DNA from: Planctomycetota bacterium
Lineage (GTDB): Bacteria; Planctomycetota; JACOTG01; JAJDCM01
NCBI GenBank assembly: GCA_029260825.1
Contig: JAJDCM010000102.1
Coordinates: forward strand, 3,447 to 67,446
DNA length: 64,000 nt
Direction of reading: 5' to 3'
Under the pieces are notes generated by a model. That model saw only the letters and a list, made by a program, of their open reading frames with translations. It was not told the origin of the DNA and made no database searches. How positions within the stretch are numbered: the first letter of the stretch is position 1; each line of letters opens with the position of its first letter. The translations under genes and the position numbers were made by a program. This document shows positions 1 to 49,447 of the stretch, in pieces.

Positions 1-17
1 GCACGGTCCGACGGTTC

Positions 18-3000
18 ATGGCGGTGATCAAAGTGGCGGACATGCTCCATCACTTCACCCAGTCCGACTTCGAAGGGAAAGACGGAAAACAGGGCCAACA
101 CGTCCATACCCGAAGCTATCCGGAAAGGATCATGGATCCGGACCAGGCAGGTGTCCCCATCGTCGGCGACGGGACCCGCTTTACCGTTCCCGGAGGAATC
201 ACCGACATCGTTTTCGATCGCCAGCGGGGAATTGCCTACTTCATTGACAACATTACGGACAATCTCTACGCCGTCCTTTATGGTCGCGGCGATCTGCAGC
301 CAAAGCCCATCGCCCAGCTTCCATTCCCCTACGAACGGGGCTCAACGAACAACTTCATCGAAATCGATCCTCGTTCGGTATTCGGGGACATGGGCCGGCT
401 CTACATCGGCCGCAAGAAACGAAACCAGATTCTTGTCTATGACCTGAATGGATCCGTTCCCGCTGGAGAGCCCGTTCCATTGCGTCGACCGTCCATCGAT
501 CTTGAGGGCGCACCCACCACGGACATCACCGGAGGAATCGGTACTCCGGCCCCACTTCTTGGCCTCGTTCCATTTCCTGCCGGCCAGGGGTTCTTCATCG
601 CTGCCGAACGGAATAACCAATCCATCGTCCGCTTCGTCTATCCCCGGGTCGACGCTCGCGCAAGACCGGAAGAAGACGACCCGAGCACGCCCGAGGATGA
701 CCGCTTCGATGGAGAAGACGATGACCTGGACGGAGTCGTCGACGATCGTCCCACTCACCCTTCGGGTCGGCCCGAAGGCAATGTCCGGGATCTGGTCGAC
801 AACGACGGAGACGGGATGGCGGACGATAGTGCCGCTGGAGGGCTGACCGCCCCGGTCCCCCTCCTTCCACCGGAAAGCTTTCCTCTTGGGGTGTTCCCGA
901 CCGCCTGGGCCTTTGATCCGATCCTGAACCAGTTCATCGTTACGAGTGGATACCACTTGACGCGGCTACGCAGTGTTGGCCTGGAGGCCGCGACTCCATC
1001 GGGAATGGCTGCCGACAGCATCAGGCGCGTCATCACTCAGTTTCTCACGCCTACGGAGCGAGTCGTCAGGCTGGCCGTTCATCCAGGTACTTCCATCTAC
1101 TGCTTGACGCGAGACACCGCCACCCAGAAGAGTAAGCTCCTGAAGTTCCAGGCGGAAAAGATCGTGATTCAGGACATTTTTCGACTCCCCGTCAACGGTG
1201 AAGGTCTCGAGTTCGATCCGATTAACAGACTGATCTTCGTGACCGGCAAAGGACCGGGTTCCGAACCCAATCGGCTCGTCGTCGTTCGTGACCGGGGCTC
1301 GATGCTCGAGCAGGTCCTCGTGAAACCGGGAGTCCAGTACAACCGGTCGGAGATCCTCGCCGATCCTCAACGAGGGCTGATCCTCACCGCATCAAGAACG
1401 ACGGGACACATCTTACTGGCTCCCTTCCGCTCCTTCCCCCATAGCGAGAAGAACAAGAATCTCGATAATGGAGGCCAGATCAAGCTGGCACCCGTGTCGA
1501 GTCAGGATTCCCCCTTGCGGGAGCGCCAGTTCATGCTGAAGGCGGACTTCGACAACGACATCCATCTGAGGCGTCCGTCCCTGACAAACACTCGAGTCGA
1601 TGCAAATCCCGCGACCCCAACCCAGCGAGTCCAGGGACAGATCATCCGGGTTACCGGCCGGGACGAACAGGTCGACATTCCGGACTCGGTGTTTTCCACG
1701 ACAAACGATCCCCCGAGACTACTCCCGGATGGATTCTTTTCATTCACCAACACTCGATCCAATGAGCCTGCCGTGGAGGCCATCCGATACAAGGCGCGAG
1801 ACATTTACGGCTCAGGTGCCATCATTTCGAACTCTCCGCACCGGGGACTTCGAACGGGAGGAGTGAGTTTCTGGATCAAGTTTGATGGTCTCGGAACTCT
1901 TCCCGGTGGAGACCTCGCCATTGACCCGACGAGTCCGCCCAACACGGTTGACCTCTTTCGAATGTTCTTCAAGGCGCGCATCGATCCCTACGTCTTCCTC
2001 CAGATGGAAGATGACAAGACCGTGGAAGAAGAGCTGGAAAGAGTCATGGGCCTCCAGCCGGGAACGGTTGACCGTGGTTCCATTCGATTCAGGCCACCCC
2101 TTCCAAGGTACTACGTGGAGTCAAGAATCAGTCTCCGGCAGTTCAAGGATACAAACGGAAACGGTGACATCGATACGGTGCGGGTCCGGTGTACAAATCA
2201 TATGGACCTGGCATTTGGCTCCCTCGGTGTGTCGTATCGCCGGGCCGATAACCCGGCCGTGATCGTGAACGACATCTTCGACCCCATTTCCCAGAATCTG
2301 GACATCAGCTACCTTCCCAGCCGGCCCGACAATCTCCTTGGATTCCGCGAGAAGCCTCCCCGAAGAGTTCATCTCGCCGACGGAGGGGAATGGGTTCATT
2401 TTGCCACCCTTTGGGGCTCGGGGCTCGAAGCAAGCTCGGGGAAAGAGAAGGTCCACGCCCGGTTCTATCTCAACGGGAAACGGATGCCGCACGAGGGTCT
2501 GAACATCCCCATCGATCCGGCCGCTCATCCGGAAAGAGACGACCCGTTGACCGCCGCCACGGAGCCAACCGATGGGGTCGATTCCGATCGAGACGGAGCG
2601 GTTGATGACCTGGGAGGTATCTACGGCGAGCCCGAGCCCGATCACACCAGGAGGAATCTCGTCGATGATGACGGAGATGGAGTCGTCGACGACGGATACA
2701 CCTTCAGTCCACCTTTTGTCATGATTGGCGCGGTGCTCAATGACTCGACCCCTCCTGCGATGAACATGAGGGTCATCGTCGATGATCTCGTATTCTTCCC
2801 CAATGAAAACGCATTCATTCCACCCGATCCCAACCGGATCGATCCTGTCGATAATTTCATTCCTCGCCGATTCCTGAGTCGAGGTGAGACCCCCGATTTC
2901 GATTTCGACGGTTCTTCCGATGAAGGTGAACCCTTCAACGACATCAACGGCAACGGAAAATACGACCAGGTCGCCCGAAGCTTCTTCGACCGGAACGGGA

Positions 3001-3881
3001 ACGGAGTTCACGATCAGGGCGAACCCTACCAGGGAATGTATCCGTATGACTTTGGAGATTCGGTTCCCGGTGAACCCTACTACGATCACGACGGAGATGG
3101 CAACTGGGGCGGCACGGACTCGGATCTAGATCTGGGCCACGACTTTGAGAGCAGCGGGAGCCTTGGCAGCGAGATCGGAATCGGAATTGGTGGCTTCAGC
3201 TCCGACTACTACGAAGACCGAAACGGCAACGCCATCCGCGATGACGGCGAGTTCTACTGGGATCTCAATTCGAACACCAGCCCCGGTCGAGATCCTCCCG
3301 AACCCTTCAACGACAACAACTTCAGCGGCACCCTCGACGGAGGCGGCAAGTTCATCCGGGAATTTGATCAGACCCTCAACCCGGGAGACCGGGTGGCCTG
3401 GCTTGCCTTTGACGGCGTTATTCCCGAGGGCACCAATCTTAATCCCGAACTCGTACTGAAATCACTCTCGGGCAGGACCCTGAATCACTTCTACGGTGAT
3501 CGCAAGGCTCGAAACGCCCGGCGAGTTGGTTTTACGATCCAAGAGCCCTCAACCCTCGAGTACCGGATCAACTTCATGGTCCCCCGGGATGGAGGGATCT
3601 ACGAGCCCTTCAGAGCGGGAGATGGAGTCGCCGGAACCCGAGCAGAAGGAGACGATATTCAGATCGTCCCCGTTGGGGACATCGTCAAGAATGGCGACCG
3701 CATCGTAGGACCTGGTATCAACGGACTCATCGATTCCACCCCGGCCGGTGGTGATCGATTCGTCATGCCCTTCCAGTCTCCGATTCTGGAATCTGTCACC
3801 GTGGCCGTGATCATCAAGCCCCAGATCCTCTTCCTCGAGGAAAACATCATCAACGTCCCGGACGTAGCACAAGTGCAGTAA
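18..3881 (+). CDS. Giant Asp-rich calcium-binding-repeat protein (thrombospondin-type-3-like DxDxDGxxDD loops); possibly 5'-truncated by the window edge
   Basis: 1287-aa ORF whose frame is open back to nt 1. It has repeated motifs DDDLDGVVDD, DNDGDGMADD, DDDGDGVVDD, DSDRDGAVDD, NGNGKYDQ and NGNGVHDQ, and the same motif class recurs in the downstream pseudopilin. No prepilin leader is visible in the available N-terminus. Confidence 0.6.
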   Translation: MAVIKVADMLHHFTQSDFEGKDGKQGQHVHTRSYPERIMDPDQAGVPIVGDGTRFTVPGGITDIVFDRQRGIAYFIDNITDNLYAVLYGRGDLQPKPIAQLPFPYERGSTNNFIEIDPRSVFGDMGRLYIGRKKRNQILVYDLNGSVPAGEPVPLRRPSIDLEGAPTTDITGGIGTPAPLLGLVPFPAGQGFFIAAERNNQSIVRFVYPRVDARARPEEDDPSTPEDDRFDGEDDDLDGVVDDRPTHPSGRPEGNVRDLVDNDGDGMADDSAAGGLTAPVPLLPPESFPLGVFPTAWAFDPILNQFIVTSGYHLTRLRSVGLEAATPSGMAADSIRRVITQFLTPTERVVRLAVHPGTSIYCLTRDTATQKSKLLKFQAEKIVIQDIFRLPVNGEGLEFDPINRLIFVTGKGPGSEPNRLVVVRDRGSMLEQVLVKPGVQYNRSEILADPQRGLILTASRTTGHILLAPFRSFPHSEKNKNLDNGGQIKLAPVSSQDSPLRERQFMLKADFDNDIHLRRPSLTNTRVDANPATPTQRVQGQIIRVTGRDEQVDIPDSVFSTTNDPPRLLPDGFFSFTNTRSNEPAVEAIRYKARDIYGSGAIISNSPHRGLRTGGVSFWIKFDGLGTLPGGDLAIDPTSPPNTVDLFRMFFKARIDPYVFLQMEDDKTVEEELERVMGLQPGTVDRGSIRFRPPLPRYYVESRISLRQFKDTNGNGDIDTVRVRCTNHMDLAFGSLGVSYRRADNPAVIVNDIFDPISQNLDISYLPSRPDNLLGFREKPPRRVHLADGGEWVHFATLWGSGLEASSGKEKVHARFYLNGKRMPHEGLNIPIDPAAHPERDDPLTAATEPTDGVDSDRDGAVDDLGGIYGEPEPDHTRRNLVDDDGDGVVDDGYTFSPPFVMIGAVLNDSTPPAMNMRVIVDDLVFFPNENAFIPPDPNRIDPVDNFIPRRFLSRGETPDFDFDGSSDEGEPFNDINGNGKYDQVARSFFDRNGNGVHDQGEPYQGMYPYDFGDSVPGEPYYDHDGDGNWGGTDSDLDLGHDFESSGSLGSEIGIGIGGFSSDYYEDRNGNAIRDDGEFYWDLNSNTSPGRDPPEPFNDNNFSGTLDGGGKFIREFDQTLNPGDRVAWLAFDGVIPEGTNLNPELVLKSLSGRTLNHFYGDRKARNARRVGFTIQEPSTLEYRINFMVPRDGGIYEPFRAGDGVAGTRAEGDDIQIVPVGDIVKNGDRIVGPGINGLIDSTPAGGDRFVMPFQSPILESVTVAVIIKPQILFLEENIINVPDVAQVQ

Positions 3882-3945
3882 CATCCCGCTTCTGACCCGG
3901 ATTTCTAACTTTTGGGAGTGCGGAAGAGGGGCAGGAGAGACAACA

Positions 3946-5466
3946 TTGTACAGGCATCAGGCTTCCAGGCTAGCCATGCCACACCCAACACGAAACAAAG
4001 TAGCGCACGTGGAAAAGAACCCGCCCCAACACGACGGATGTGAGGGGTTTACCCTCATCGAAGTTCTCATTGCTACAGCTCTCTTGAGCCTGCTCTTTCT
4101 GGGGATCGCTCCTTTCTTTGCGGCTCGTTTCAGTGCAAGTCAGAGAGTTGTGGAGGATTCCCTTCCCCCGATCATCGGAAGGAGCATCGCCGACGCCATC
4201 CTCGTTGGTGCAGAAGAGCACTTCGACCCGGTCCACAACATTTTCTATTTTGATTACGAGGGGATCCGGATCGAAATCGATCTCCCGAGTCCCTATGAGG
4301 TTCGTGAGTACCCCGGAATTGTCTTGCGGGACACACGGGACGGCATCGTGAACAGCAGCATCGACCCCGCCGACCTCACCACGGTTACTCCTGGCGGATA
4401 TGCTCTTTCCCACGGGATCATCGCTCGCCCGGGGGCCAATCGGATCTTCGATCCGGGGACGATTCCTGCAGGAGATGACAAGATCCTTCGACTCGGGCTC
4501 TACCCTCTCGGACCCGTCGCCGTGATTGCTCTTCCGACCGTGGTGGATCCAAACGCTGGCCCCAACGACCCGGTTCCGCTTCCAGTCTTTGTGGAAGCCG
4601 TCGGGCTCCCCATCCACGAGACGGATCTCAACGACGACGGAGTTTTTTCCCGGCTTGAGAACTTGAATCGAAGCACTCTTATATCCCGAGGAGCCCTCAC
4701 TCAATCTCGTGACGCCTACGAAGACACCGGACCGGACAACCTTCCCAGCTATCTTGAGCCTTTGTACGATCCGATCTTGAACCCGGACCCGTCCGGTGAT
4801 GACTTTGATCCGGTCTTGAATCCGAGCGGTCCGGAGGGAAACGGTCGGCTCGATCGGAGGGAGGATATGAACGGTGACCGATACCTCAGCATCATGGACT
4901 TCCATATTGACGAAGACCTCAACGTAGACGGGGTCCTGAACCCCAACGAAAGAGACATCAACGGGAACAATCTGACGTCCGACCGAGGCGTCCCTACACC
5001 GGATCGTCCCCCCACCGCAGTCTCCTACATTCCGAACGATCCGAATTCACCTGATCTTCCTCCCCCGGCCTATCCCCGGGAGAGCGACCCGGTACGATCC
5101 CTCGGCTATGCCATCGTCGTCCAGCGACCCAGCGATGAGGAGATCTACCTCTTTCGAATTCTGATCTACAAGAACTACCTCCGAACTCGCTCCCTCCTTG
5201 CTCAAGCCACGCCGATTCGACGGGAACTCGTAGCAAAACCCGAGACCGGACAGCGAGCAACCAACATGATCGATGACGATAAGGACGGGGTCGTCAACGA
5301 CGATCCAAATGATCCCTTCGGCTCCCCGGAAATCACCCTGGACGGAATCGACAACGACGGCGACGGGGTCATCGACGACGGCCTCATTCTTCCCGCGTAC
5401 ATTCACACCTTGGTGCTGACGATTGATTCTGGAACCACGATCTCCCTACCGGGAGACCCGAGATGA
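3946..5466 (+). CDS. Giant prepilin-type (pseudopilin-like) protein with class III signal peptide and Ca-binding Asp-rich loops
   Basis: Has a G|FTLIEVLIATALLSLLFLGIAP prepilin cleavage/methylation motif with Glu at +5, and C-terminal DDDKDGVVNDD and DNDGDGVIDDG loops. The ORF-track start at 3946 is a TTG preceded by GGAG; an alternative ATG lies at 3976. At 506 aa it is 3-4x the size of normal pilins. Confidence 0.7.
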   Translation: MYRHQASRLAMPHPTRNKVAHVEKNPPQHDGCEGFTLIEVLIATALLSLLFLGIAPFFAARFSASQRVVEDSLPPIIGRSIADAILVGAEEHFDPVHNIFYFDYEGIRIEIDLPSPYEVREYPGIVLRDTRDGIVNSSIDPADLTTVTPGGYALSHGIIARPGANRIFDPGTIPAGDDKILRLGLYPLGPVAVIALPTVVDPNAGPNDPVPLPVFVEAVGLPIHETDLNDDGVFSRLENLNRSTLISRGALTQSRDAYEDTGPDNLPSYLEPLYDPILNPDPSGDDFDPVLNPSGPEGNGRLDRREDMNGDRYLSIMDFHIDEDLNVDGVLNPNERDINGNNLTSDRGVPTPDRPPTAVSYIPNDPNSPDLPPPAYPRESDPVRSLGYAIVVQRPSDEEIYLFRILIYKNYLRTRSLLAQATPIRRELVAKPETGQRATNMIDDDKDGVVNDDPNDPFGSPEITLDGIDNDGDGVIDDGLILPAYIHTLVLTIDSGTTISLPGDPR

Positions 5467-7163
5467 AAACCCAGTCCGGATTCACGCTGGTGGAGATGTT
5501 GGTGGCTCTTGCGATCACCGTGGTCCTCACCACCGGATCGCTCTTTACCTTGCGAGCCCTGCGCCGGACAGATGAGAGCTTTAACACCCTCTCCGATGTA
5601 CACATCTCTCTTGTCAGGATCGAGCAGGCGATTCGGGATGATCTCAGTCGTTCCGAAAAGACGATCAGCCTGGAACCTCACCGAGAGATTCGAGGGATCG
5701 TCGCAGCAATCGTGGATGCTCAAGTGAGCCCTCCTGTTACGGTAGAACGAGAAAAGAGGGTGTCTGAATCCTTGGATGGCATCTTCAATCGACGGTGTGA
5801 CATTTTCACCGCCATTGACGACATCAATACCCGCCCGCTCATTGCCAGGTCTGTCTTCCTGGGAACTCCCTACTTGAGGGACAGACCAAGCAACGAATCC
5901 CGGGGACTCCCCCTACCCAACGCACGGACCCCCTTCAGTGATCCGGTGGTCGAGGGTGTAAACCAACCCTTTGGACCGGTCTACGATTTCTTTGGCGGGA
6001 TTCTCAACAACGGGTTTCGAGATGTCTTGTACTTTCAAACGAGTGAGGAAACCGCCAACGGAACCCAGCGAGTCGCCGTTGCTTTCCGTCTCGTCGAGAC
6101 GTCGAACCGATTCAATGGCGATCGGGGAACGGACGGCCTCGAAAACGAATTTGAGCCCGGGTTCCATCCGGTCTACCGGCGCGACCCTTCCCGGGACGAT
6201 CACCCCAACCCCACACGAAATATCGTGGAGGGGGACGGGCGTTTGACAGGATTCGAGGGCCAGACGGGAGGGTTTCTGGACAGACAGCCCTCTCGCTATG
6301 AACTGCAGCGGGTCATCTATTCGATGGACTCCGGTCCTCAGTTCGCACTTCCCAGACCCAGGGTCCTGGCGTCCCCCATCAGCCAGGACGTGGTCGGGTT
6401 CAACGTCCTCTACTATGATCGAATTGAAAAGCGATATCGTGAGCCGGAAAGGCTGGTGAAACGGTTTGGTTACCCGGAAGACTTCGGTGCTCCCGTGGTT
6501 GCCATCGGGCGAAAAAGGTTCCAGATGGTGGAACACACCCGTCAATCCGAAGACCTGGTCGTCGGAGACTCGATCTTCCTGTATCAGCTGAACCTTGACT
6601 GGGAGCCGACCGACGACCCGACCCTGATTTATTCCGTACCTCCACAGATCTACACGATTCAATCCGTGGGCGCTCCTGCCAACGGGGGCGGGGTTCGGTT
6701 CTCCGTTGCCGAGAGCATCTTTGCCAACCTCTCCGATCCCGCGGCCTCGGTCGGCGGGATGGGTTCAGTGGGTTATCTGGATCCTGAGGGAATACTCCGC
6801 AGCAGGGCCGTCTATGACGGGTTTCACAACCTCAAACCCAATGATGAAATCTACCTGGAACAACGTAGACTTCCGCTTGCCCACGAGGTTCAGCTTGCCG
6901 ATGCGTTTGATCCGACACTCCCGACCAGGCCATACGTCTACTCGATCCAGCCGGGGATGTACCGAATCCAGGCGCACCGGGGGGAAGGCATAAAAATTGA
7001 TCTGAAAGGACAGATTCCCCTTTCGGGAGTACCCGTACTCTTTCGAGCAGCTTATTTCCCTCCAGCCATCAAGTTAGAGCTCTCAATCGGTCGACATAAC
7101 CCTATTCAAAACACTGTGATCATGCGCAATGTTCCGATCGTCATCCGCATGCCTCAGGAGTAA
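5463..7163 (+). CDS. Giant prepilin-type (pseudopilin-like) protein
   Basis: Begins MKTQSG|FTLVEMLVALAITVVLTTGSL, a short leader followed by a canonical N-methyl-Phe/E5 pilin helix. Its ATG overlaps the upstream stop in an ATGA arrangement. Length is 566 aa. Confidence 0.75.
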   Translation: MKTQSGFTLVEMLVALAITVVLTTGSLFTLRALRRTDESFNTLSDVHISLVRIEQAIRDDLSRSEKTISLEPHREIRGIVAAIVDAQVSPPVTVEREKRVSESLDGIFNRRCDIFTAIDDINTRPLIARSVFLGTPYLRDRPSNESRGLPLPNARTPFSDPVVEGVNQPFGPVYDFFGGILNNGFRDVLYFQTSEETANGTQRVAVAFRLVETSNRFNGDRGTDGLENEFEPGFHPVYRRDPSRDDHPNPTRNIVEGDGRLTGFEGQTGGFLDRQPSRYELQRVIYSMDSGPQFALPRPRVLASPISQDVVGFNVLYYDRIEKRYREPERLVKRFGYPEDFGAPVVAIGRKRFQMVEHTRQSEDLVVGDSIFLYQLNLDWEPTDDPTLIYSVPPQIYTIQSVGAPANGGGVRFSVAESIFANLSDPAASVGGMGSVGYLDPEGILRSRAVYDGFHNLKPNDEIYLEQRRLPLAHEVQLADAFDPTLPTRPYVYSIQPGMYRIQAHRGEGIKIDLKGQIPLSGVPVLFRAAYFPPAIKLELSIGRHNPIQNTVIMRNVPIVIRMPQE

Positions 7164-7165
7164 GG

Positions 7166-8878
7166 ATGAGACAAAATCCGCTGGTTATGAGGATGGTGCA
7201 ATCCGGTCTCATCGACGAATCCGCCGCCGACCAGCTCATGGCCTTTGTCGCTGAGAGGGGTCTGCGGGTTCCGGAGGCAGCACGCCGCCTCGAACTAACC
7301 TCACCACAAAGCCTCAGTCAGTTTTTGGCCGACGATTCGGGCCTGATGTACGTGAACCTGAGAGAGATGGATGTTCCCGCCAACATCTTCTTCAGCTTCC
7401 CCGATGCTCTCATGGAAGAGTACGGCATGATTCCCATCAGCTTCGAAGAAGAAGCCAAGACCATCGGCATTTTTGACCCGACCAACATCGATGCTCTCGA
7501 TGCTGCCCGATTCAATCTTTCCGGCGAAATCACTTTCGTTTGCTGCGAAGCAGATGCCATCGAAGAGCTCAAGCTGAAGCATCTTGGCGATGATGCAGCA
7601 CCCGGAGGCTCGCCCGAGAACGCTGGCATTACGGTCACCGTGACCCAAAGATACGAGGATGACGGACAATCCGGTGAAGAGGAGGTCGTTCGCTACGTTG
7701 ACGAGATCCTCGGAAAAGCCATTGTCAACAAGGCGAGTGACATCCACTTTGAACCCCTGGGAGACGGACTCCGGATTCGCTTCCGAATCGACGGAGTCTG
7801 CTACGATCGGGATTATCTCAGTGAAAACCGGCAGGGTCCGGTCATCGCACGACTGAAGATTCTTGCCGGGATGGACATCACCGAGCGCCGCACACCCCAG
7901 GAAGGCCGAATTGAAGCCAAAGCAGAGGGACGCGAGATTGACATCCGGGTCTCATCCCTTCCCACGAACCATGGGGAGAGCATGGTGCTCCGGCTTCTCG
8001 ACCGTTCCAATCTGGTCAAGGGAATCAAAGACCTTGGCTTTGGACAGGGTGACTATGATCTCTTCATGGAGATCGTCGAACGCCCGGACGGCATCGTACT
8101 GGTGACCGGTCCTACCGGCTCGGGCAAGACCACCACACTCTATTCCGCTCTTCGAGAAACGAAGAAGGAATCCATGAAGACGGTGACGGTCGAGGATCCT
8201 GTCGAGTTCACGTTCGATGGGATCACCCAGATTCCGATCCAGGGGGGCATCGGATTGGATTTCCCCCGGGCACTCCGCAGCATTCTTCGACACGACCCGG
8301 ACGTGATACTCGTCGGTGAGATTCGCGACCTCGAGACCTCCGAAACGGCCATGCGAGCCGCTCTAACCGGTCACAAGGTCTATAGCACCTTGCATACGAA
8401 TGATGCTCCATCTGCCATCTCTCGACTTCTCGATCTCGGCGCCGAGCCGTTCCTGGTCGTGGCTTCCGTTCAAGCGTGTATGTCCCAGCGACTGGTTCGC
8501 CGTCTCTGTGATCACTGCAAGGAAGAGGATCACGTGACCCACGAAGAGCTTCTTCACAACGGTTTTCCCGTCACCAACAAAGCCATCCAGCTCTTCAAAC
8601 CCGTGGGATGTCACCGCTGTTTCATGACCGGATACGTGGGCCGAATCGCCATTTTTGAGATCATGGACTACTCGGACAAACTGAAGGCAATGACCTTGCA
8701 AAGATGTAGCCGGGAGGAAACCCGCCGCATCGCCATCCGCGAGGGAATGCACTCCCTTCGGATGGATGGTTTCTTGAAGGCAACAGAAGGCGTGACTTCC
8801 CTCGCCGAAGTCATGCGCGTGGCTCAGAAGGAAGAGACGGACACGGATCCGAGAGAGGCACCAGCTCATGTGTCCTGA
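7166..8878 (+). CDS. gspE: GspE/PilB-family secretion ATPase with N-terminal GspE_N (N1) domain
   Basis: Has Walker A VTGPTGSGKTTTLYSAL, Walker B/Asp box ILVGEIRD, a His box, and a tetracysteine motif CDHC...CHRC. An AGGAG lies 6 nt upstream of the ATG. Length is 570 aa. Confidence 0.9.
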   Translation: MRQNPLVMRMVQSGLIDESAADQLMAFVAERGLRVPEAARRLELTSPQSLSQFLADDSGLMYVNLREMDVPANIFFSFPDALMEEYGMIPISFEEEAKTIGIFDPTNIDALDAARFNLSGEITFVCCEADAIEELKLKHLGDDAAPGGSPENAGITVTVTQRYEDDGQSGEEEVVRYVDEILGKAIVNKASDIHFEPLGDGLRIRFRIDGVCYDRDYLSENRQGPVIARLKILAGMDITERRTPQEGRIEAKAEGREIDIRVSSLPTNHGESMVLRLLDRSNLVKGIKDLGFGQGDYDLFMEIVERPDGIVLVTGPTGSGKTTTLYSALRETKKESMKTVTVEDPVEFTFDGITQIPIQGGIGLDFPRALRSILRHDPDVILVGEIRDLETSETAMRAALTGHKVYSTLHTNDAPSAISRLLDLGAEPFLVVASVQACMSQRLVRRLCDHCKEEDHVTHEELLHNGFPVTNKAIQLFKPVGCHRCFMTGYVGRIAIFEIMDYSDKLKAMTLQRCSREETRRIAIREGMHSLRMDGFLKATEGVTSLAEVMRVAQKEETDTDPREAPAHVS

Positions 8879-10226
8879 CGACTATTTTGACCAGGGATTT
8901 CAACTGGACGGCGGAGAGAACGCGCAAAAGCCTGAAGAAAAAGATCCCAATCTCGACCGGGCCGGGTTCTTTGATGGAGGTGGCGCCGCCGATGCAGGTG
9001 CAGGAACCGATATCACGGTTCGTGCCCAGCAGCCCGAAACCACTCGCCTCTTGAACTATCTCCTCGGTCAAGCCATCGAACTCGAGGCGAGTGATGTCCA
9101 CATTCAACCCGACTCGGACGGGTATCTGGTTCGGTTCAGAATCGACGGTGTCCTCGGCGATTTCCAGCGCCCGCCCAAAGGGATGGGCCCGGTCCTTATT
9201 GCTCGAATCAAAGTTCTCTCGGACATGAACATTGCTGAAAGACGTCTTCCCCAAGATGGACGCCTCGAACTCCATCACCAGGGAAAAGACGTGGAGATTC
9301 GTGTTTCGATCATTCCTGCCGTATTCGGCGAAAGCGCTGTTCTTCGTATTCTCTCGACCGGCATTGCCGAACACAAACTGGAACACCTTGGGCTCACCCC
9401 GAAGTCGGCGCAACAATTCCACGACCTCTTTCGGTCTCCCCATGGAATGATCCTGGTAACCGGGCCCACTGGTTCGGGAAAAACCACAACTCTCTACGCG
9501 GCCATCAACGACCTCAATCAGATGAACCGCAAGATCATCACCACCGAGGAACCGGTCGAATACGACATCAAGGGAATCATCCAGGTGGAGATCAATCCCA
9601 TCGTGGGCTTGACCTTTGCTACGAGCCTTCGATCGATTCTGCGCCAGGATCCAGACATCATCCTGATTGGAGAAATCCGGGATCCGGAAACGGCACGCAT
9701 CGCGATTCAGGCGGGTCTCACCGGACACCTTGTTTTCGGAACAGTTCACACCCGAGATGCCTCATCCGCCATTCCTCGACTGGTGAACATGGGTATTGAA
9801 CCTTATCTTGTAGCGGATACGATCCTCGGAGTGATTGCCCAGCGCCTGGTTCGCAAGCTCTGTACGAAGTGTAAGGAACCCACAACCCCTTCCGTGTACG
9901 AGGCAAAAATCCTTGAAAGCGCGGGCATCGAAGACACCTCCACCCTCTGCCGAGGAAAAGGGTGCGAGGCGTGCGGTGGACACGGGTATCGCGGAAGACA
10001 GGCTATTTTCGAGCTGATGATTTGCGACGGAGAAATCCGCGATTTGATTCATAACAATAGCTCCCCGATTACTCTACGGAACGCAGCTAGAGCAGCCGGG
10101 ACAAGATCCCTTCGCGAAGAAGGGATCGCCATGGCTTTGCGTGGCGAAACGACCCTCGATGAAATTCTTCGGATCACGATTGACGAGCGAATGGACCCGG
10201 CGGCACTCGCCGAAGCGGGGGACTAG
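8868..10226 (+). CDS. Second GspE/PilB-type ATPase lacking the long N1 domain
   Basis: Has VTGPTGSGKTTTLYAAI, ILIGEIRDPETA, and a tetracysteine CTKC...CEACGGHG. The zinc motif argues for a PilB/GspE type rather than a PilT retraction ATPase. It overlaps the upstream gene by 11 nt. Confidence 0.85.
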   Translation: MCPDDYFDQGFQLDGGENAQKPEEKDPNLDRAGFFDGGGAADAGAGTDITVRAQQPETTRLLNYLLGQAIELEASDVHIQPDSDGYLVRFRIDGVLGDFQRPPKGMGPVLIARIKVLSDMNIAERRLPQDGRLELHHQGKDVEIRVSIIPAVFGESAVLRILSTGIAEHKLEHLGLTPKSAQQFHDLFRSPHGMILVTGPTGSGKTTTLYAAINDLNQMNRKIITTEEPVEYDIKGIIQVEINPIVGLTFATSLRSILRQDPDIILIGEIRDPETARIAIQAGLTGHLVFGTVHTRDASSAIPRLVNMGIEPYLVADTILGVIAQRLVRKLCTKCKEPTTPSVYEAKILESAGIEDTSTLCRGKGCEACGGHGYRGRQAIFELMICDGEIRDLIHNNSSPITLRNAARAAGTRSLREEGIAMALRGETTLDEILRITIDERMDPAALAEAGD

Positions 10227-10271
10227 ATCACTAGCGCCGCATCGCGGCTATTTCAGGCGGTAACTTCACGC

Positions 10272-11513
10272 ATGAAGTTTGAATACGAAGCATTTGATCG
10301 CAAGGGCGAACGATTCCGCAAGACCATCAATGCGGAAAACTGGGACGAAGCGACCACGAAGATCCGAGCTCGCGGCTATCTCCCTCTCACCGTTTCCGGA
10401 ATCACTCGAGGCGAAGAGGATGCTCGAAAGCAACGTTCGGTCTTGCGGCGCCTGGTTCCCCGGGTACCCTGGCCCCGCCACAAAGATGTGATCTACTTCA
10501 CCCGCCGCATGGCCACTCTCCTTGGCTCGGGTATTTCGGTGGGTCGATCTCTTGAGATCCTGAAGAATCAGTTCTACGGACAACCGATGGAGAAGGTCGT
10601 CAGCGATGTTCGGGAGGCGCTGGATCGAGGGCGATCCTTCGCCGACTCTTTTGCCGAGCACCCTCGCACCTTCGGGGAATTCTACCGCGCGGTAGTTCAT
10701 GCCGGAGAATTTGGCGGAGACCTGGATGGGTCGTTGCGTCGCCTGGCGGATCAACTCGAGCTCGCCCGGGCGAGAAAGAGGAAACTCGTTTCATCGTTGA
10801 TCTATCCGGTGATTGTCATTCTTCTTTCCTTTACCATCGTCACCATCATCGCGACGTTCATCATCCCGTTCTTTCGTGAAGTCTACGAGAGTTCCGGAAT
10901 GACCGAGCTTCCCGCGCTGACCGAAGGTCTCCTCAAGGTCAATCAGACCTTCCTCGACTGCTGGTGGATTCTTGCCCTGCTGATCACCGCTGTGGTCTCG
11001 AGCGTCGTGTTCGGGCGAAAAACCAAAAAGGGCCGGTATGCCATGGATCTCGCCCTACTCCGCATTCCCGTCGTTGGGGGGATGATCCGTCGCCACAATC
11101 TAGCCTGGTTCCACCGTACCCTTGGCGCCATGCAAGAATCCGGCGTTGGACTCATCGAAGGCCTTGAAGTGGTCCGTCGTGTGGTCAACAACACGGTCTT
11201 GAAGGAAGCTGCGGCCGACATCCGGCGCAAGGTCTCCGAGGGAGCGACCATCACGGACGTGATGAATCGCAACAAGATCTTTGATGTCTACGCCACAAGC
11301 ATGGTTGACGTTGGAGAAGAGTCCGGCCGTCTCTCCGACATGATGTACGCCATTGCCGACAGCTACGATGAAGACCTCGACACCCTCTATGAGCGAATTG
11401 ACGCCCTCTTCACCCCGGCAACAATCGTGGTCCTGGGTGTCATGGTCGCTGTAACCGTGGTTGCGCTCCTACTTCCCTACTTCAAGTACATCCAGAGCCT
11501 GACCGAGGTGTAA
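10272..11513 (+). CDS. gspF: GspF/PilC-family inner-membrane platform protein
   Basis: Has an N-terminal MKFEYEAFDRKGERFRKTINAENWDEATTKIRARGYLP typical of PilC/GspF. It also has two T2SSF-type repeats with predicted TM helices. Length is 413 aa. Confidence 0.85.
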   Translation: MKFEYEAFDRKGERFRKTINAENWDEATTKIRARGYLPLTVSGITRGEEDARKQRSVLRRLVPRVPWPRHKDVIYFTRRMATLLGSGISVGRSLEILKNQFYGQPMEKVVSDVREALDRGRSFADSFAEHPRTFGEFYRAVVHAGEFGGDLDGSLRRLADQLELARARKRKLVSSLIYPVIVILLSFTIVTIIATFIIPFFREVYESSGMTELPALTEGLLKVNQTFLDCWWILALLITAVVSSVVFGRKTKKGRYAMDLALLRIPVVGGMIRRHNLAWFHRTLGAMQESGVGLIEGLEVVRRVVNNTVLKEAAADIRRKVSEGATITDVMNRNKIFDVYATSMVDVGEESGRLSDMMYAIADSYDEDLDTLYERIDALFTPATIVVLGVMVAVTVVALLLPYFKYIQSLTEV

Positions 11514-11539
11514 ACAAGAACCAAGATGGCAAATGGAAG

Positions 11540-13486
11540 CTAAGAACTCACCAGATAGGAAGTGACTCTGTTCTCGACTCCCTTGACCTGAAGCTTGTCG
11601 TGGAAACAACACGACACTTCATCCTTCACCTGATCAAAGGTCGTCTCGGAAATGAGGATCCCCCCCGGCGGTGCGCTACTCTCCAGACGGGAAGCAAGGT
11701 TTACCGAGGCCCCTACGACCGTATAGGAAAGCCTTCGAGCTGATCCCATGTTGCCAACAACCATCGGACCGGTGTGGATCCCGATGCGAATGACAAGATC
11801 CATGCCTCCCCTTCTCTTCCAGGCTTCGCGAAGGTCCCTGGATTTCTGCTGCATCTCGATTCCGGCTCTCACACATCGAAGGGCATGATCCGCCTGGGGT
11901 TCGGGGTCACCGAAAAAGACCATCAGGCCATCGCCGATGAACTTGTCCACCGTCCCTCCGTGGCGAAAGACGATCTCGACCATGGCGCCGAAATACTCGT
12001 TCAAGGCGTTCTGGACCTCGAGCGGATCAAGTCGTTCAGACATCTGGGTGAAATTCTTGATGTCGCTGAAGAGAACCGTGAGCTCTTTCTTGTTCCCCAT
12101 CGGTTGAAACAACTGTGACTGAGAGATCAGTCGACGGGTTACCGCCGGCGGGAAATAGGCATCGAACATACTCCGAAGCCTCGTTTTCTCCTTCTCTTCA
12201 AGGATGTACCTGCGCCCGAGGGTCAGGCCCACCAAACAGGTGAGCATGAGGATGGGTCGAACTAGATTACCAACCATCCCTCCCCAGATCATGGCGCCGG
12301 CGAACCCAAAAACAACAACGATTGCCACAAGCGCACTTGCAAAAAAGAAGGAAGAAGACCTGCCCAAAATCGACAACAGGAGCAGAACAACACAAAGTCC
12401 CAGCTCCACCGACCAGGTTTCCCGCAAAGACAACTCCCTCAGAAAGTCTTGCTTCAAGATCGAGTTTGCAATGCTCACGTGACCGCCTACGAGCGGATAC
12501 GCCGGGTCGGTGGGAACCGCTCCAATATCATGGCTCGCCATGGAAACATCGCCGATGAAGACGATTTTCCCCTCAAACTTCTCCCTCCAGACCTCCGGAT
12601 AATCATGGACATCTTCACAAACTTCCACAAAAGAGATGGGCTCAACGCTCGACCACGGAAGGAGATAGTTGACGAGGATGTTTCCCCTGTCGTCGATAGG
12701 AATCGTGATGTCATTCGTCTCGCCGCCGGGAAGGACCGCCTCTTTGATGAGAATGTGCTTGCCCACTTCGATCGAAATCAGCTCTGGCCCTACCTGTAAA
12801 AAGTGGCACACCGCAGCAAACGAAAGATTCGGCACCCACCCCCCGTCATACCGGGTGATCAGTGGAATCCGCCGAACGAATCCATCCCGGTCCGGCTGAT
12901 GATTGATATGCCCCTGGCCCACCGCAGCATCGCCAAGAGCAGAAAACGTGGGACGCGGACGAGAGCCATGCAACAGCCCCCCTCCGTAGTCATTGCCGAT
13001 TTCACTCCAAACCCAAGAATGCGCTGGCTCTTGCCGAAACGAATCCTCCGAAGTCTCGCCTGGAAGCTCAAGCGATGTTTGAAAGAGAAGACTATAGAAA
13101 ACATTACCGGCTTCGCGGGTCGCCCGAATGAGTTCCTCATCTTTCTTGGCGTCTTTTTCTCCCCCGAAGACAACATCCCAGGCTTGCGCCGAAGCACCGG
13201 TTGCCCCAAGTGCTCGAACCACTCGAGAACACCATTCCCGATCCAGGTAGAGACTGCCAAGAGCATCAAAACTCTCCTGATCGAGAACAACACACGCAAC
13301 CTTGTCGTGAAGCTGGAAGGCCTCCGATCGCCATTTCTGACGAAGGCCATAGAGAAGGTCCGTGGCCTGCAGATTCCACGTGTCCAGGAGAGATGGGAAG
13401 AGAAGGAAACCCAGGTGAGAAATGAGAAAGGAGGCTGATACCGCAACAACCGCACCGAGCCAGGCCTTGCTCTTAGCGGTGATCAA
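11540..13486 (-). CDS. CHASE2-sensor class III adenylate/guanylate cyclase
   Basis: Has an N-terminal TM, a roughly 330-aa periplasmic region, and three TM helices. The C-terminal cyclase core is FSDIKNFTQMSERLD...VDKFIGDGLMVFFG. The start codon appears to be TTG and lies inside the 3' end of the upstream lipoprotein gene. Confidence 0.8.
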   Translation of the reverse strand: MITAKSKAWLGAVVAVSASFLISHLGFLLFPSLLDTWNLQATDLLYGLRQKWRSEAFQLHDKVACVVLDQESFDALGSLYLDREWCSRVVRALGATGASAQAWDVVFGGEKDAKKDEELIRATREAGNVFYSLLFQTSLELPGETSEDSFRQEPAHSWVWSEIGNDYGGGLLHGSRPRPTFSALGDAAVGQGHINHQPDRDGFVRRIPLITRYDGGWVPNLSFAAVCHFLQVGPELISIEVGKHILIKEAVLPGGETNDITIPIDDRGNILVNYLLPWSSVEPISFVEVCEDVHDYPEVWREKFEGKIVFIGDVSMASHDIGAVPTDPAYPLVGGHVSIANSILKQDFLRELSLRETWSVELGLCVVLLLLSILGRSSSFFFASALVAIVVVFGFAGAMIWGGMVGNLVRPILMLTCLVGLTLGRRYILEEKEKTRLRSMFDAYFPPAVTRRLISQSQLFQPMGNKKELTVLFSDIKNFTQMSERLDPLEVQNALNEYFGAMVEIVFRHGGTVDKFIGDGLMVFFGDPEPQADHALRCVRAGIEMQQKSRDLREAWKRRGGMDLVIRIGIHTGPMVVGNMGSARRLSYTVVGASVNLASRLESSAPPGGILISETTFDQVKDEVSCCFHDKLQVKGVENRVTSYLVSS

Positions 13487-14162
13487 TCGTAAATCTTTTG
13501 TAGAGGAAGCCGTTCACGGTAAACTCCGTTCCCTTTTGGTTGCTGAGTTCGTCGTCTCCACTCCGAAGAACTCCGCCGATGCTTACCGGGCGTGATCGAG
13601 CGATTTGTAGGCCAGCATGATCCCGCTTGAGGATCTGGATCTGGCTCAAAACTTCCTTGTTCCTCTCTTTGATGTCTTCGAGAGGATTCTCTTTCCAGGA
13701 CTCCGTGCTCTGGCGAATGAGCTCATCCAGCTTGACAAGCCGGTTTCGCGACACGATCAAATGAACCCGCTCCTTCCCGACATTCTCGTCAAGAGGAACG
13801 TTTGAAAGAATCGAAACCACTCTGGGGTATGTCTGGTTACCCGAAAGCTCTTTTGGATTCCGGGGAAATAGAACCGACACCGATCTGTTTGTGTCTTCCC
13901 AGAAGACGTAAACAAAGGCCTTTTCCGGAAAATCGGCAACGATGTTCATCTCGGCCCCGCTCGAAAGAGTGGTGCCCGTTTTCAACGGGTGAAACACACG
14001 CCCCTTTTCGCTCTCGACCATCGCACCAGCAAGCCACTTGAAGAGAAGGGGCTTCTCGGGCTTGGAATCGAGCTCGCCCCTCGGCTCAACACCGTTGGAA
14101 GGAGGGCAACCCAAGAAGAAAGAGAACAACAGAGCCATCAGCACGGAATTTGGATACGTCAT
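13473..14162 (-). CDS. Lipoprotein, likely periplasmic partner of the CHASE2 cyclase
   Basis: Has a signal peptide with lipobox FFLGC. It overlaps the cyclase start by 14 nt. No recognisable catalytic motif. Confidence 0.5.
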   Translation of the reverse strand: MTYPNSVLMALLFSFFLGCPPSNGVEPRGELDSKPEKPLLFKWLAGAMVESEKGRVFHPLKTGTTLSSGAEMNIVADFPEKAFVYVFWEDTNRSVSVLFPRNPKELSGNQTYPRVVSILSNVPLDENVGKERVHLIVSRNRLVKLDELIRQSTESWKENPLEDIKERNKEVLSQIQILKRDHAGLQIARSRPVSIGGVLRSGDDELSNQKGTEFTVNGFLYKRFTIDHR

Positions 14163-14404
14163 GTGATTTCGGCCACTTGTTCAAGAATAGAAGTGATGGA
14201 ATGGGGATCCTGACACCTATCTATTTTACTCATTATCCAAAAAAGGGGAAGCGAAAAGACGAGTCGCCCTGGACAAGGATCGCTGCGTGCTTCATCCTGC
14301 CAGAGCTGGACTTAAGAGTCTGGACGGCCCCCTTCCAACCCGGCGATAACACTAGTATCATCGAGGCAATAATTTGTGAGAACTTCTCATCCAAACGTGG
14401 GTTC

Positions 14405-47747: not shown

Positions 47748-47754
47748 GGCAATA

Positions 47755-49446: not shown

Positions 49447-49447
49447 C

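What the first reader, a model, noticed from the sequence alone, without database searches (positions are those of the whole stretch)
7166..11513. Tandem GspE-type ATPases (one with the N1 domain, one without) plus GspF, with no secretin, peptidase or GspL/M/C in the operon
Both ATPases keep the tetracysteine zinc motif of extension ATPases (CDHC..CHRC and CTKC..CEAC), so neither is a PilT-type retraction motor. Two stacked extension ATPases overlapping by 11 nt are unusual. They suggest a heteromeric or substrate-specialised motor for the oversized pilins upstream.
Basis: partly seen in the sequence, partly recalled or inferred. Interest (0 to 1): 0.6.

Follow-up and report, generated by a model that had tools for sequence, protein, structure and literature searches.

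The report
Paired pilus-extension ATPases, one machine
The two adjacent motor genes are real, but they are two ancient sister lineages of pilus-extension ATPases at the tail end of a large pilus gene cluster that the window cuts in half, and this pairing is common in planctomycete-like bacteria though almost unstudied.

Summary
The sequence observation holds. E1 (7166-8878, N-terminal MshEN domain plus ATPase core), E2 (8868-10226, core only) and a GspF/PilC platform gene (10272-11513) sit in one tight operon. E1 and E2 overlap by 11 nt, and both keep every catalytic motif and the four-cysteine zinc site. Neither is PilT-like.

Two parts of the finding need correction.

1. "No secretin or GspL/M/C" is a window-edge effect. 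The window starts inside the giant gene. In a 70%-identical orthologous contig and on a Candidatus Manganitrophus plasmid, the same cassette is preceded by a prepilin, an ABC transporter, PilZ, a secretin and PilM. No prepilin peptidase was seen.

2. The pair is not a recent duplication; the two proteins are 42-43% identical. E1 groups with the upstream ATPase, and E2 with the downstream ATPase, of an ATPase-PilT-ATPase-PilC locus found in 59 of 80 related PVC-group loci (planctomycetes, verrucomicrobia and allies).

What is specific to this small clade is that E2 has lost its N1 domain, PilT is absent from the cassette, and the pilins are rare and oversized.

Most likely both ATPases drive extension on one shared platform. 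Whether they form a mixed complex is untested. This is a new variant of a known kind, of moderate interest.

The parts
1..3881 (+). 3' two-thirds of a giant gene (at least 1287 aa in the window; the ortholog is 1974 aa). It is a putative tip or minor pseudopilin with eight DxDxDG calcium-site-like motifs. The gene runs off the window's 5' edge.
   Evidence: The reading frame is open to base 1. It is 49% identical to L087 bases 2791-6780, inside a gene spanning 904-6828. The ortholog's N-terminus reads RGSEG|VALLAVLGLTILILG, a hydrophobic pilin-like segment without Glu5; the GspK-like reading of this is inference. No Pfam or NCBIfam match. DxDxDG motifs counted.
3946..5466 (+). Oversized prepilin-like protein (ORF of 506 aa). 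The cleavage motif G|FTLIEV lies at nt 4045, and there are two DxDxDG motifs near the C-terminus.
   Evidence: Pfam N_methyl 23.3 bits (cut-off 21.2) and TIGR02532 21.8 bits (cut-off 16.3). Motif scan. Orthologs are 58-59% identical in L085 and L087, and 29-44% on the Manganitrophus plasmid.
5463..7163 (+). Oversized prepilin-like protein (566 aa) starting MKTQSG|FTLVEML. It overlaps the previous gene by 4 nt and ends 2 nt before E1.
   Evidence: Pfam N_methyl 31.5 bits and TIGR02532 24.6 bits. The family is very rare: 16 hits at E<=1e-3 among 1.84 billion cluster representatives. It is 34% identical over its full length to the Manganitrophus plasmid gene.
7166..8878 (+). E1: a PilB-like extension-type ATPase (570 aa) with an N-terminal MshEN/N1 region, N2 domain and C-terminal ATPase domain. 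All catalytic motifs and the four-cysteine site are intact.
   Evidence: Pfam T2SSE 396 bits and MshEN 40.5 bits. NCBIfam PilB 532 bits, GspE 482, PilT family 168. Best PDB match is Myxococcus PilB 3jc8. Sister to the first ATPase of the Manganitrophus cassette in 100/100 bootstraps, and with the PVC upstream ATPases in 76-84/100. Motifs.
8868..8878 (+). 11-nt overlap between the E1 stop codon and the E2 start codon, implying translational coupling. An AGAGAGG stretch lies about 9 nt upstream of the E2 ATG.
   Evidence: Sequence read. Overlaps of 11 and 14 nt are kept in the orthologs L085 and L087.
8868..10226 (+). E2: an extension-type ATPase core (452 aa) made of N2 and the C-terminal domain only. 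The N1 domain is replaced by a roughly 46-57 aa disordered acidic tail that carries a conserved RAGFFD motif. Catalytic motifs and the four cysteines are intact.
   Evidence: Pfam T2SSE 420 bits with no MshEN. NCBIfam GspE 533 bits, PilB 457, PilT family 180. Best PDB match is GspE 4pht. AlphaFold model pLDDT 78, with residues 1-46 below 50. Foldseek top hits are PilF/PilB cores (target-normalised TM 0.91, E 1e-49) against PilT at E 1e-26. Sister to the second Manganitrophus ATPase, which still has N1, in 94/100 bootstraps. Only two close orthologous clusters exist in a 5.8-billion-protein database.
10272..11513 (+). F: the GspF/PilC-type inner-membrane platform protein (413 aa). It is the only platform gene in the cluster.
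   Evidence: Pfam T2SSF, two domains, 186.5 bits. NCBIfam GspF 323 bits (cut-off 424) and PilC models 242-255 bits. Orthologs are 81-85% identical; the Manganitrophus gene is 46% identical. There is a single T2SSF gene in L087, L093, L096 and L098.

Best explanation
Bases 1-11513 of the window are the distal half of a self-contained type IV filament gene cluster of about 25 kb. In the orthologous clusters the gene order is: large prepilin, ABC ATPase and membrane protein, PilZ, secretin, PilM, two small membrane proteins, ABC-2 permease, giant tip-like protein, two oversized prepilins, E1, E2, platform F.

E1 and E2 are not a recent duplicate pair. They come from two old paralogous lineages of extension-type (PilB/GspE) ATPases that travel together in one locus. 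In PVC-group bacteria the locus reads ATPase-PilT-ATPase-PilC. In plasmid-borne versions of this same cassette in Candidatus Manganitrophus it reads ATPase-ATPase-PilC-PilT.

Both proteins look catalytically competent and are made in coupled fashion. The cluster has one platform protein. The most likely mechanism is therefore that both ATPases power filament extension on the same platform, with divided roles. E1 keeps the N-terminal docking/regulatory region. E2 has lost its N1 domain and presumably depends on E1, or on the platform directly, for recruitment.

Shown here: gene content, synteny, phylogenetic placement, motif integrity and domain loss. Inferred: that both act on one machine, that both drive extension, and how the work is divided.
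For: Domains and family scores:
- Searches place both proteins with PilB/GspE and not with PilT.
- All ATPase motifs and the four cysteines are kept in both proteins across three orthologous lineages.

Phylogeny (neighbour-joining, 367-378 columns, 100 bootstraps):
- E1 is sister to the first Manganitrophus ATPase in 100/100 replicates.
- E2 is sister to the second Manganitrophus ATPase in 94/100.
- E1 groups with the PVC upstream ATPases in 76-84/100.
- E2 groups with the PVC downstream ATPases in 76/100.
- E1 and E2 are never sisters.
- PilT falls outside their common ancestor in 100/100.

Cluster conservation:
- The whole cassette is colinear between the window, L085, L087/L097, the Manganitrophus plasmid (L091-L093, L096) and L098.
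- Each version has exactly one T2SSF platform gene.
- The plasmid location argues that the cluster is a functional unit containing both ATPases.

Coupling and precedent:
- The 11-14 nt overlap is conserved.
- 59 of 80 related PVC loci carry two full-length extension-type ATPases plus PilT.
- Acinetobacter baylyi needs two phylogenetically distinct extension ATPases, PilB and TfpB, for normal pilus synthesis (PMC8213720). A review raises hetero-oligomers as an open possibility (PMC11656802).
- Independently evolved single-chain proteins have the layout [N1-N2-CTD]-[N2-CTD], the same domain pattern as E1 followed by E2 (P0123-P0126, P0128).
Against: - There is no experimental or structural evidence here that E1 and E2 touch each other or the same platform.
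- The window's own upstream region could not be read, so the full cluster is inferred from orthologs at 49-85% identity.
- The tree is neighbour-joining on one alignment, and the deep nodes reach only 76-84%.
- The 80 PVC loci were selected by similarity to E2, so '59 of 80' is not an unbiased frequency. At least two Phycisphaerae loci (L002, L003) show one ATPase next to the platform gene.
- The fused double ATPases arose by their own internal duplications. They show only that such an architecture is viable, not that E1 and E2 bind.
- PilT is absent from the window clade's cassette, which leaves room for one paralog to have another role.
Confidence: 0.55

Rival explanations
1. Obligate mixed motor. 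E1 and E2 assemble into one hetero-oligomer, either a ring of alternating subunits or two stacked or adjacent rings. Only E1 contributes the N1 docking domain.
For: - The start/stop overlap is conserved, which favours equal amounts of the two proteins.
- The pair co-diverges, since both partners have sisters in the Manganitrophus cassette.
- E2 has lost N1 while E1 keeps it.
- Unrelated fused proteins carry one N1 and two ATPase cores in a single chain.
- The field regards PilB-TfpB hetero-oligomers as an open possibility.
Against: - No interaction was tested, and the tools here cannot model complexes.
- In the sister cassette and in the canonical PVC loci the second ATPase keeps its N1 domain. 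A shared N1 is therefore not an ancestral feature.
- In those loci a PilT gene sits between the two ATPase genes.
- Each protein keeps a complete active site and could form its own hexamer.
Confidence: 0.25
2. Division by substrate or stage. One ATPase primes assembly by loading the giant tip protein and the oversized minor pilins. The other polymerises the major pilin processively. Each works as a separate homohexamer that takes turns on the platform. This is the first reader's 'substrate-specialised' option, and it matches the model proposed for A. baylyi TfpB and PilB.
For: - The cassette always pairs the two ATPases with a giant protein and two oversized prepilins.
- Oversized prepilins also follow the canonical PVC locus.
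- The A. baylyi authors propose that TfpB initiates extension and PilB makes it processive.
Against: - This is purely correlative.
- Neither protein is a TfpB ortholog. They score 410-440 bits against a cut-off of 850.
- Nothing in the sequences identifies which protein would do which step.
Confidence: 0.2
3. E2 has taken over retraction. The cassette in this clade lacks PilT, and E2 has the PilT-like two-domain layout with no N1, so E2 may run the filament backwards.
For: - PilT is present after the platform gene in the sister cassettes (L093, L098) but absent from the window, L085 and L087.
- E2 lost N1 in exactly this clade.
- Extension-type ATPases can support retraction in some systems. 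The Tad CpaF case is listed, and the discussion in PMC6668835 is quoted.
Against: - E2 keeps the four-cysteine motif and scores and folds as a PilB/GspE core: GspE 533 bits against PilT family 180, and Foldseek E 1e-49 against 1e-26.
- PilT is always outside its clade.
- PilT could simply be encoded elsewhere in the genome, which was not available.
Confidence: 0.1
4. E2 is a decaying or purely regulatory, non-catalytic copy, or the tandem is an assembly or duplication artefact.
For: E2 is truncated at its N-terminus. It carries EEP in place of EDP in the Asp box.
Against: - EEP occurs in 78 of 348 relatives, so it is a normal variant.
- All other motifs are intact.
- E2 orthologs are 70-73% identical, as conserved as E1 orthologs at 68-72%.
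- The pair recurs in at least six independent assemblies.
- The AlphaFold model of the core is confident.
Confidence: 0.03

Closest known systems
Acinetobacter baylyi PilB + TfpB, two extension motors for one type IVa pilus (Ellison et al. 2021, PMC8213720)
   Same: Two phylogenetically distinct PilB/GspE-class ATPases, both apparently catalytic, serve one filament system. They are as divergent from each other as PilB is from GspE.
   Different: - Neither E1 nor E2 is a TfpB ortholog: the NF053534 model gives 440 and 410 bits against a cut-off of 850.
- Here the two genes are adjacent and translationally coupled inside the pilus cluster.
- One partner lacks N1.
- The pair is conserved across PVC bacteria and a Nitrospirota plasmid rather than within Gammaproteobacteria.
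PVC-group locus: extension ATPase - PilT - extension ATPase - PilC, followed by large prepilins (seen here in 59 of 80 loci; no description was found in the searched literature)
   Same: E1 groups with the upstream ATPases and E2 with the downstream ATPases (76-84% bootstrap). Both arrangements have one platform gene and oversized prepilins nearby.
   Different: - In the window there is no PilT between or after the ATPase genes.
- The pilins lie upstream rather than downstream.
- E2 has lost N1.
- E1 and E2 are only about 40-50% identical to the PVC proteins, so this is a paralogous cassette and not the housekeeping locus.
Type IVa pilus machinery (PilB-PilT-PilC with PilMNOPQ; Myxococcus xanthus as the nearest solved PilB)
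   Same: - E1's best solved relative is M. xanthus PilB.
- The orthologous cluster has PilM, a secretin and a PilC-like platform.
- From memory, the Myxococcus pil cluster also contains an ABC transporter (pilGHI).
   Different: - There are two extension ATPases.
- No PilD or PilT is present in the cluster.
- The pilins are 465-578 aa, and a protein of about 2000 aa stands where a tip complex would be expected.
- NCBIfam PilB and PilC equivalog cut-offs are not reached.
Type II secretion ATPase GspE with GspF (Vibrio EpsE, 4pht/4ksr)
   Same: E2's best solved relatives and best NCBIfam model are GspE. It also has the four-cysteine zinc site, and the GspE-GspF gene order is the same.
   Different: - E2 lacks the N1E domain that binds GspL.
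- There is no GspC, GspL or GspM anywhere in the cluster; a PilM-type gene is present instead.
- The score of 533 bits is below the GspE cut-off of 630.
PilT/PilU tandem retraction ATPases, the documented case of adjacent paralogous motors in type IV filament loci (Denise et al. 2019, PMC6668835)
   Same: Adjacent paralogous hexameric ATPase genes serve one pilus.
   Different: PilT and PilU are retraction-type. E1 and E2 are both extension-type. That study lists the PilB/PilT and PilT/PilU duplications but no PilB/PilB pair.

Membership tests
PilB/GspE-class extension ATPase (Pfam T2SSE, secretion NTPase superfamily) | Walker A, Asp box, Walker B and His box are all present | tested here: met
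   Both proteins have GPTGSGKT. The Asp box reads TVEDPVEF in E1 and TTEEPVEY in E2. Walker B reads DPDVILVGEIRD in E1 and DPDIILIGEIRD in E2. The His box reads TGHKVYSTLHT in E1 and TGHLVFGTVHT in E2. T2SSE scores are 396 and 420 bits.
PilB/GspE-class extension ATPase (Pfam T2SSE, secretion NTPase superfamily) | Four-cysteine zinc motif in the C-terminal domain, which is absent from PilT | tested here: met
   E1 has cysteines at 448, 451, 482 and 485. E2 has them at 332, 335, 366 and 369. They are conserved in all orthologs and absent in the cassette's PilT.
PilB/GspE-class extension ATPase (Pfam T2SSE, secretion NTPase superfamily) | N-terminal N1 (T2SSE_N/MshEN) domain | tested here: not met
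   Met for E1: PF05157 scores 40.5 bits at residues 59-135. Not met for E2: no hit, residues 1-46 are disordered, and the ORF cannot be extended upstream.
PilB/GspE-class extension ATPase (Pfam T2SSE, secretion NTPase superfamily) | Branches with PilB/GspE and outside PilT/PilU | tested here: met
   PilT is outside the common ancestor of E1 and E2 in 100/100 bootstraps. Foldseek places E2 with PilF/PilB/GspE cores.
Type IV-A PilB equivalog (TIGR02538) / T2SS GspE equivalog (TIGR02533) | Score above NCBI's curated cut-off (675.65 for PilB, 630.25 for GspE) | tested here: not met
   E1 scores 532 for PilB and 482 for GspE. E2 scores 457 for PilB and 533 for GspE.
PilT/PilU retraction ATPase (TIGR01420) | Score above cut-off 319.1, no four-cysteine motif, and PilT-clade placement | tested here: not met
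   Scores are 168 bits (E1) and 180 bits (E2). The four cysteines are present. Both fall outside the PilT clade.
TfpB second extension motor of Acinetobacter (NF053534) | Score above cut-off 850 | tested here: not met
   Scores are 440 bits (E1) and 410 bits (E2).
MshE-type c-di-GMP-gated ATPase | Tandem 24-residue RLGxx(L/I/V)(L/I/V)xxG(L/I/V)(L/I/V)xxxxLxxxLxxQ motifs at the extreme N-terminus (consensus recalled from memory) | tested here: not met
   A regex finds no match in window E1 or its two orthologs. It finds two matches in the sister Manganitrophus protein P0127. A weak NfrB C-terminal-domain hit to E1 residues 2-106 (E 5.6e-6) suggests the fold is retained.
Type II secretion system (Gsp) | GspC, GspL and GspM assembly-platform genes alongside GspD, E, F, G-K and O | tested here: not met
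   tblastn with E. coli GspC/D/G/K/L/M/O finds nothing in the window. The ortholog's upstream region has PilM_2 instead of GspL/M. Its secretin scores 152 bits on the GspD model, below the cut-off of 351.
Type IVa pilus system | PilB, PilC, PilM, PilN, PilO, PilQ, PilD, PilT, and major and minor pilins | tested here: inconclusive
   - Present: a PilB-like ATPase, a PilC-like platform, prepilins, and in orthologs PilM (weak, 25.9 bits) and a secretin.
- Possible PilN/O: two single-pass membrane proteins without family hits.
- Not found: PilD in any version.
- PilT: found only in the Manganitrophus-type cassettes.

The most novel reading that the evidence does not exclude
E1 and E2 form an obligate mixed motor, a hetero-oligomeric or double-ring extension ATPase in which only one partner carries the N1 docking domain. 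On this reading, such two-paralog motors are the normal way PVC-group bacteria and this mobile cassette drive assembly of filaments built from very large pilins. The independently evolved single-chain [N1-core]-[core] ATPases would be the fused form of the same solution.
Probability: 0.25. Interest if true: 0.8.

Novelty: new variant of a known kind. Interest (0 to 1): 0.55.

Why it matters
Type IV filament extension is usually described as the work of one PilB/GspE hexamer. The only studied exception is A. baylyi PilB/TfpB, and a 2024 review lists [quoted passage not shown] as an open question.

This locus offers natural material for that question:
- a pair of extension-type ATPases that has stayed together across phyla;
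- a pair that is translationally coupled;
- a pair that shares one platform protein;
- a pair in which one partner has shed its docking domain.

Related lineages supply both the ancestral state (both partners with N1, plus PilT) and single-chain fusions.

It also shows that paired extension ATPases are routine in planctomycetes, verrucomicrobia and their allies. I found no description of this in the literature I could search.

The practical limit is that the organisms are uncultured or hard to manipulate, and nothing about function is shown here.

Tried and rejected
Recent tandem duplication or assembly artefact: rejected.
- E1 and E2 are 42-43% identical.
- They are never sisters in the trees.
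- The pair appears in at least six independent assemblies.

PilT identity for E2: rejected.

E2 as a pseudogene: rejected. Its motifs are intact and its orthologs are 70-73% identical.

Fused double ATPases (P0123-P0126, P0128) as orthologs of the pair: rejected. Their halves cluster with each other, so they are independent duplications. In L094 no pilus genes flank the fused gene.

Labelling E1 as 'PilB' and E2 as 'GspE': only weakly justified. PVC upstream and downstream ATPases score almost equally on both models.

Attempts that gave nothing:
- An exact look-up of the NCBI form of E1 (P0121) was not on record, so the window's own upstream DNA could not be fetched.
- The word-indexed search with the 566-aa pilin found only itself and one ortholog.
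- Promoter and terminator scans of 3700-14400 were at or near chance.
- Pfam and NCBIfam gave nothing for the giant protein.
- Literature searches for the PVC two-ATPase locus or for Manganitrophus plasmid pili found nothing relevant.

The CHASE2-cyclase downstream (11540-13486, minus strand) was considered as a regulator of the cassette. It is not conserved next to the orthologs: L087 has a methyltransferase there.

Full report
**What is at the coordinates.** The plus strand of bases 1-11513 carries a tight operon.
- An ORF is open to the window's first base and ends at 3881.
- Two oversized prepilin-like genes follow, at 3946-5466 and 5463-7163. They carry the classic cleavage motifs G|FTLIEV and G|FTLVEM.
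- E1 is at 7166-8878, E2 at 8868-10226, and a GspF/PilC platform gene at 10272-11513.
- E1 (570 aa) matches Pfam MshEN at residues 59-135 and T2SSE at 169-551. E2 (452 aa) matches T2SSE only, at 58-435. The last gene has two T2SSF domains.
- E1's stop and E2's start overlap by 11 nt, and a purine-rich AGAGAGG stretch lies about 9 nt upstream of the E2 ATG.
- E2 cannot be lengthened, because its ATG is the first start codon after an in-frame stop.
- An AlphaFold model of E2 (mean pLDDT 78) leaves residues 1-46 disordered. From about residue 50 it folds as a complete N2 plus C-terminal ATPase core.

The sequence observation is therefore correct.

**Neither ATPase is PilT-like, and both look active.**
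- NCBIfam scores for E1 are PilB 532, GspE 482 and PilT family 168 bits. For E2 they are GspE 533, PilB 457 and PilT family 180 bits. No equivalog cut-off is reached.
- The best solved relatives are Myxococcus and Geobacter PilB for E1 and Vibrio GspE for E2. PilT structures score about 280 bits lower.
- The E2 model superposes on PilF/PilB cores at a target-normalised TM of 0.91 (E 1e-49). Its match to PilT is E 1e-26.
- Walker A, Asp box, Walker B, His box, the arginine-rich ERRxPQ(D/E)GR segment and all four cysteines are kept in both proteins and in their orthologs.
- E2's Asp box reads EEP instead of EDP. That variant occurs in 78 of 348 relatives, so it does not indicate decay.

**The pair is real and conserved, but it is not a recent duplication.**
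- E1 and E2 are only 42-43% identical.
- The same arrangement is giant gene, two large prepilins, E1, E2 overlapping by 11-14 nt, then F. It occurs in independent JGI and Logan assemblies.
- Identities to the window proteins are 68-72% for E1, 70-73% for E2, 81-85% for F, 49-59% for the pilins and 49-58% for the giant protein.
- In a 5.8-billion-protein database, E2 has only two close orthologous clusters. Every other hit is a full-length ATPase of about 50% identity with an N1 domain.

**Phylogeny.** I built a neighbour-joining tree on the ATPase core (367-378 columns, 100 bootstraps). It included:
- E. coli GspE, HofB and YggR;
- five PDB-derived references;
- triplets of ATPases from PVC loci;
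- the Manganitrophus proteins.

Results:
- E1 is sister to a group from Candidatus Manganitrophus plasmids (100/100).
- E2 is sister to the second ATPase of that same plasmid cassette (94/100).
- E1 and its sister group with the upstream ATPase of PVC loci (76-84/100).
- E2 and its sister group with the downstream ATPase (76/100).
- E1 and E2 are never sisters.
- PilT is always outside their common ancestor.

**Paired extension-type ATPases are common in this part of the tree.** 80 genome loci were retrieved by similarity to E2. They come from Isosphaeraceae, Pirellulales, Phycisphaerae, Brocadiae, Verrucomicrobiota, Kiritimatiellia and Lentisphaerae.
- 59 of them show full-length ATPase, PilT, full-length ATPase, platform under strict criteria.
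- Most of the rest are truncated or frameshifted versions of the same layout.
- Large prepilin genes follow the platform gene in Singulisphaera and Blastopirellula.
- The sample is biased by how it was drawn, and two Phycisphaerae loci (L002, L003) show a single ATPase.
- Both PVC paralogs score almost equally on the PilB and GspE models. Calling one 'PilB' and the other 'GspE' is therefore not justified.
- I found no paper describing this arrangement. The main comparative study of type IV filaments lists only the PilB/PilT and PilT/PilU duplications.

**The 'missing' secretin and alignment genes are a window-edge effect.**
- The first ORF aligns from about residue 630 of a 1974-aa ortholog. 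Roughly 1.9 kb of that gene, and everything before it, lie outside the window.
- In the ortholog's contig (L097) the upstream genes are, in order:
  - the C-terminal part of a large protein that is 49% identical to a Manganitrophus prepilin;
  - an ABC ATPase;
  - an ABC-2-like membrane protein;
  - a PilZ protein;
  - a secretin (PF00263 120 bits; GspD model 152 bits; Amuc_1098-family model 143 bits);
  - PilM;
  - two single-pass membrane proteins;
  - an ABC-2 permease;
  - then the giant gene.
- The Manganitrophus plasmid CP114554.1 is colinear gene for gene, with its secretin broken by frameshifts. It adds a PilT gene after the platform gene. A further metagenomic contig, L098, is the same.
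- Each version has exactly one platform gene and no prepilin peptidase.
- Inside the window itself there is no PilT, no Gsp component and no homologue of those upstream genes.

**What is specific to the window's clade.**
- E2 has lost N1. Its Manganitrophus sister (497-505 aa) still has the MshEN/N1 domain. E2 keeps only the linker, including a shared R-A-x-F-F-D motif.
- PilT is absent from the cassette.
- E1's extreme N-terminus has lost the tandem c-di-GMP-binding consensus, which I recalled from memory. The Manganitrophus sister has it twice. A PilZ protein is encoded in the ortholog's cluster.
- The 566-aa prepilin family is very rare, with 16 hits at E<=1e-3 among 1.84 billion cluster representatives.
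- The giant protein's ortholog begins with a hydrophobic pilin-like segment that lacks Glu5. That resembles GspK-type tip pseudopilins, but this is my inference and no model supports it.

**How it most likely works.**

*Shown:* two catalytically intact extension-type ATPases from two old paralogous lineages are encoded with a conserved overlap. They lie next to a single platform gene, inside a cluster that moves as a unit, including on a plasmid in another phylum.

*Inferred:* both serve that one machine and both drive extension. E1 supplies the docking/regulatory N-terminus, and E2 depends on E1 or on the platform for recruitment.

The only experimental precedent is A. baylyi. There PilB and TfpB each contribute distinctly to extension, and neither complements the other. 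Whether they form hetero-oligomers is explicitly open. E1 and E2 are not TfpB orthologs.

One suggestive observation concerns unrelated low-GC lineages. They encode single-chain proteins of 910-992 aa with the layout N1-core-linker-core, the same domain pattern as E1 followed by E2. Their two halves are each other's closest relatives, so they arose independently. This shows the architecture is viable and recurrent. It does not show that E1 binds E2.

**Rivals.**
- An obligate mixed motor: plausible but untested.
- Stage or substrate specialisation for the giant and oversized pilins: correlative only.
- E2 as a replacement retraction motor after loss of PilT: disfavoured by its fold, motifs and clade.
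- Decay or artefact: effectively excluded.

**Verdict.** The feature is real. The 'incomplete system' reading is wrong, and the 'not PilT' reading is right. The 'unusual' pairing is usual for PVC bacteria, but it is undescribed in the literature I could search. I rate it a new variant of a known kind (a type IV filament machine with a two-paralog extension motor, here with an N1-less partner) and of moderate interest.

Noticed in passing
P0123, P0124, P0125, P0126, P0128 (loci L094, L095): Single-chain double ATPases of 910-992 aa with the layout MshEN/N1 - core - linker - core. The second Walker A is sometimes GPTSSGKT or GPTGSSKT. Their halves are each other's closest relatives, so each is an independent internal duplication. 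In L094 the gene has no pilus genes next to it.
   Followed up: partly
P0133 (930 aa, NCBI source): An apparent fusion of an N-terminal PilT-like ATPase with a full-length PilB-like ATPase in one polypeptide. The C-terminal half groups with the PVC downstream ATPases in the tree.
   Followed up: no
window 18-3881 and 3946-5466: The giant protein carries eight DxDxDG-type motifs, such as DDDGDGVVDD, and the 506-aa prepilin carries two. They resemble calcium-binding loops. A roughly 60-aa module (YDPILNPDPSGDDFDPVLNPSGPEGNG...) is shared between the 506-aa prepilin and the N-terminal part of the giant protein's orthologs.
   Followed up: partly
window 11540-13486 (-) and 13473-14162 (-): A CHASE2-sensor adenylate/guanylate cyclase and a DUF4384 protein converge on the 3' end of the platform gene. 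They are not conserved next to the orthologous cassettes, since L087 has a methyltransferase there. A link to the pilus cluster is therefore doubtful.
   Followed up: partly
L096 (CP114554.1 149069-172993) and L091-L093, L098: The complete cluster lies on circular plasmids of 238-329 kb in Candidatus Manganitrophus (Nitrospirota), beside relaxase, primase and coupling-protein genes. This implies horizontal movement of the cassette between phyla. In two of the assemblies the secretin, the second ATPase or the platform gene are broken by frameshifts.
   Followed up: partly
window 44061-47873, 51609-56009, 56013-57476, 57473-62026 (all -): Four large ORFs (1270, 1466, 487 and 1517 aa) have no Pfam match and no similarity to each other or to the pilus-cluster proteins. 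The lspA and AP-endonuclease-like genes next to them (48916-50695) are syntenic with the region downstream of the cassette in L087. About 37 kb therefore appears to be inserted in the window's genome relative to that relative.
   Followed up: no
window 14150-19240 (+), 23388-28097 (-), 41782-44034 (+): A 1696-aa Ser/Thr kinase fused to an FGE-sulfatase-type domain, a 1569-aa protein with at least ten FG-GAP repeats, and a TPR-CHAT protein. This gene content is typical of planctomycete-like genomes. The source organism itself was not identified: the best genome matches were only about 50% identical, to Phycisphaerae and other PVC bacteria.
   Followed up: no
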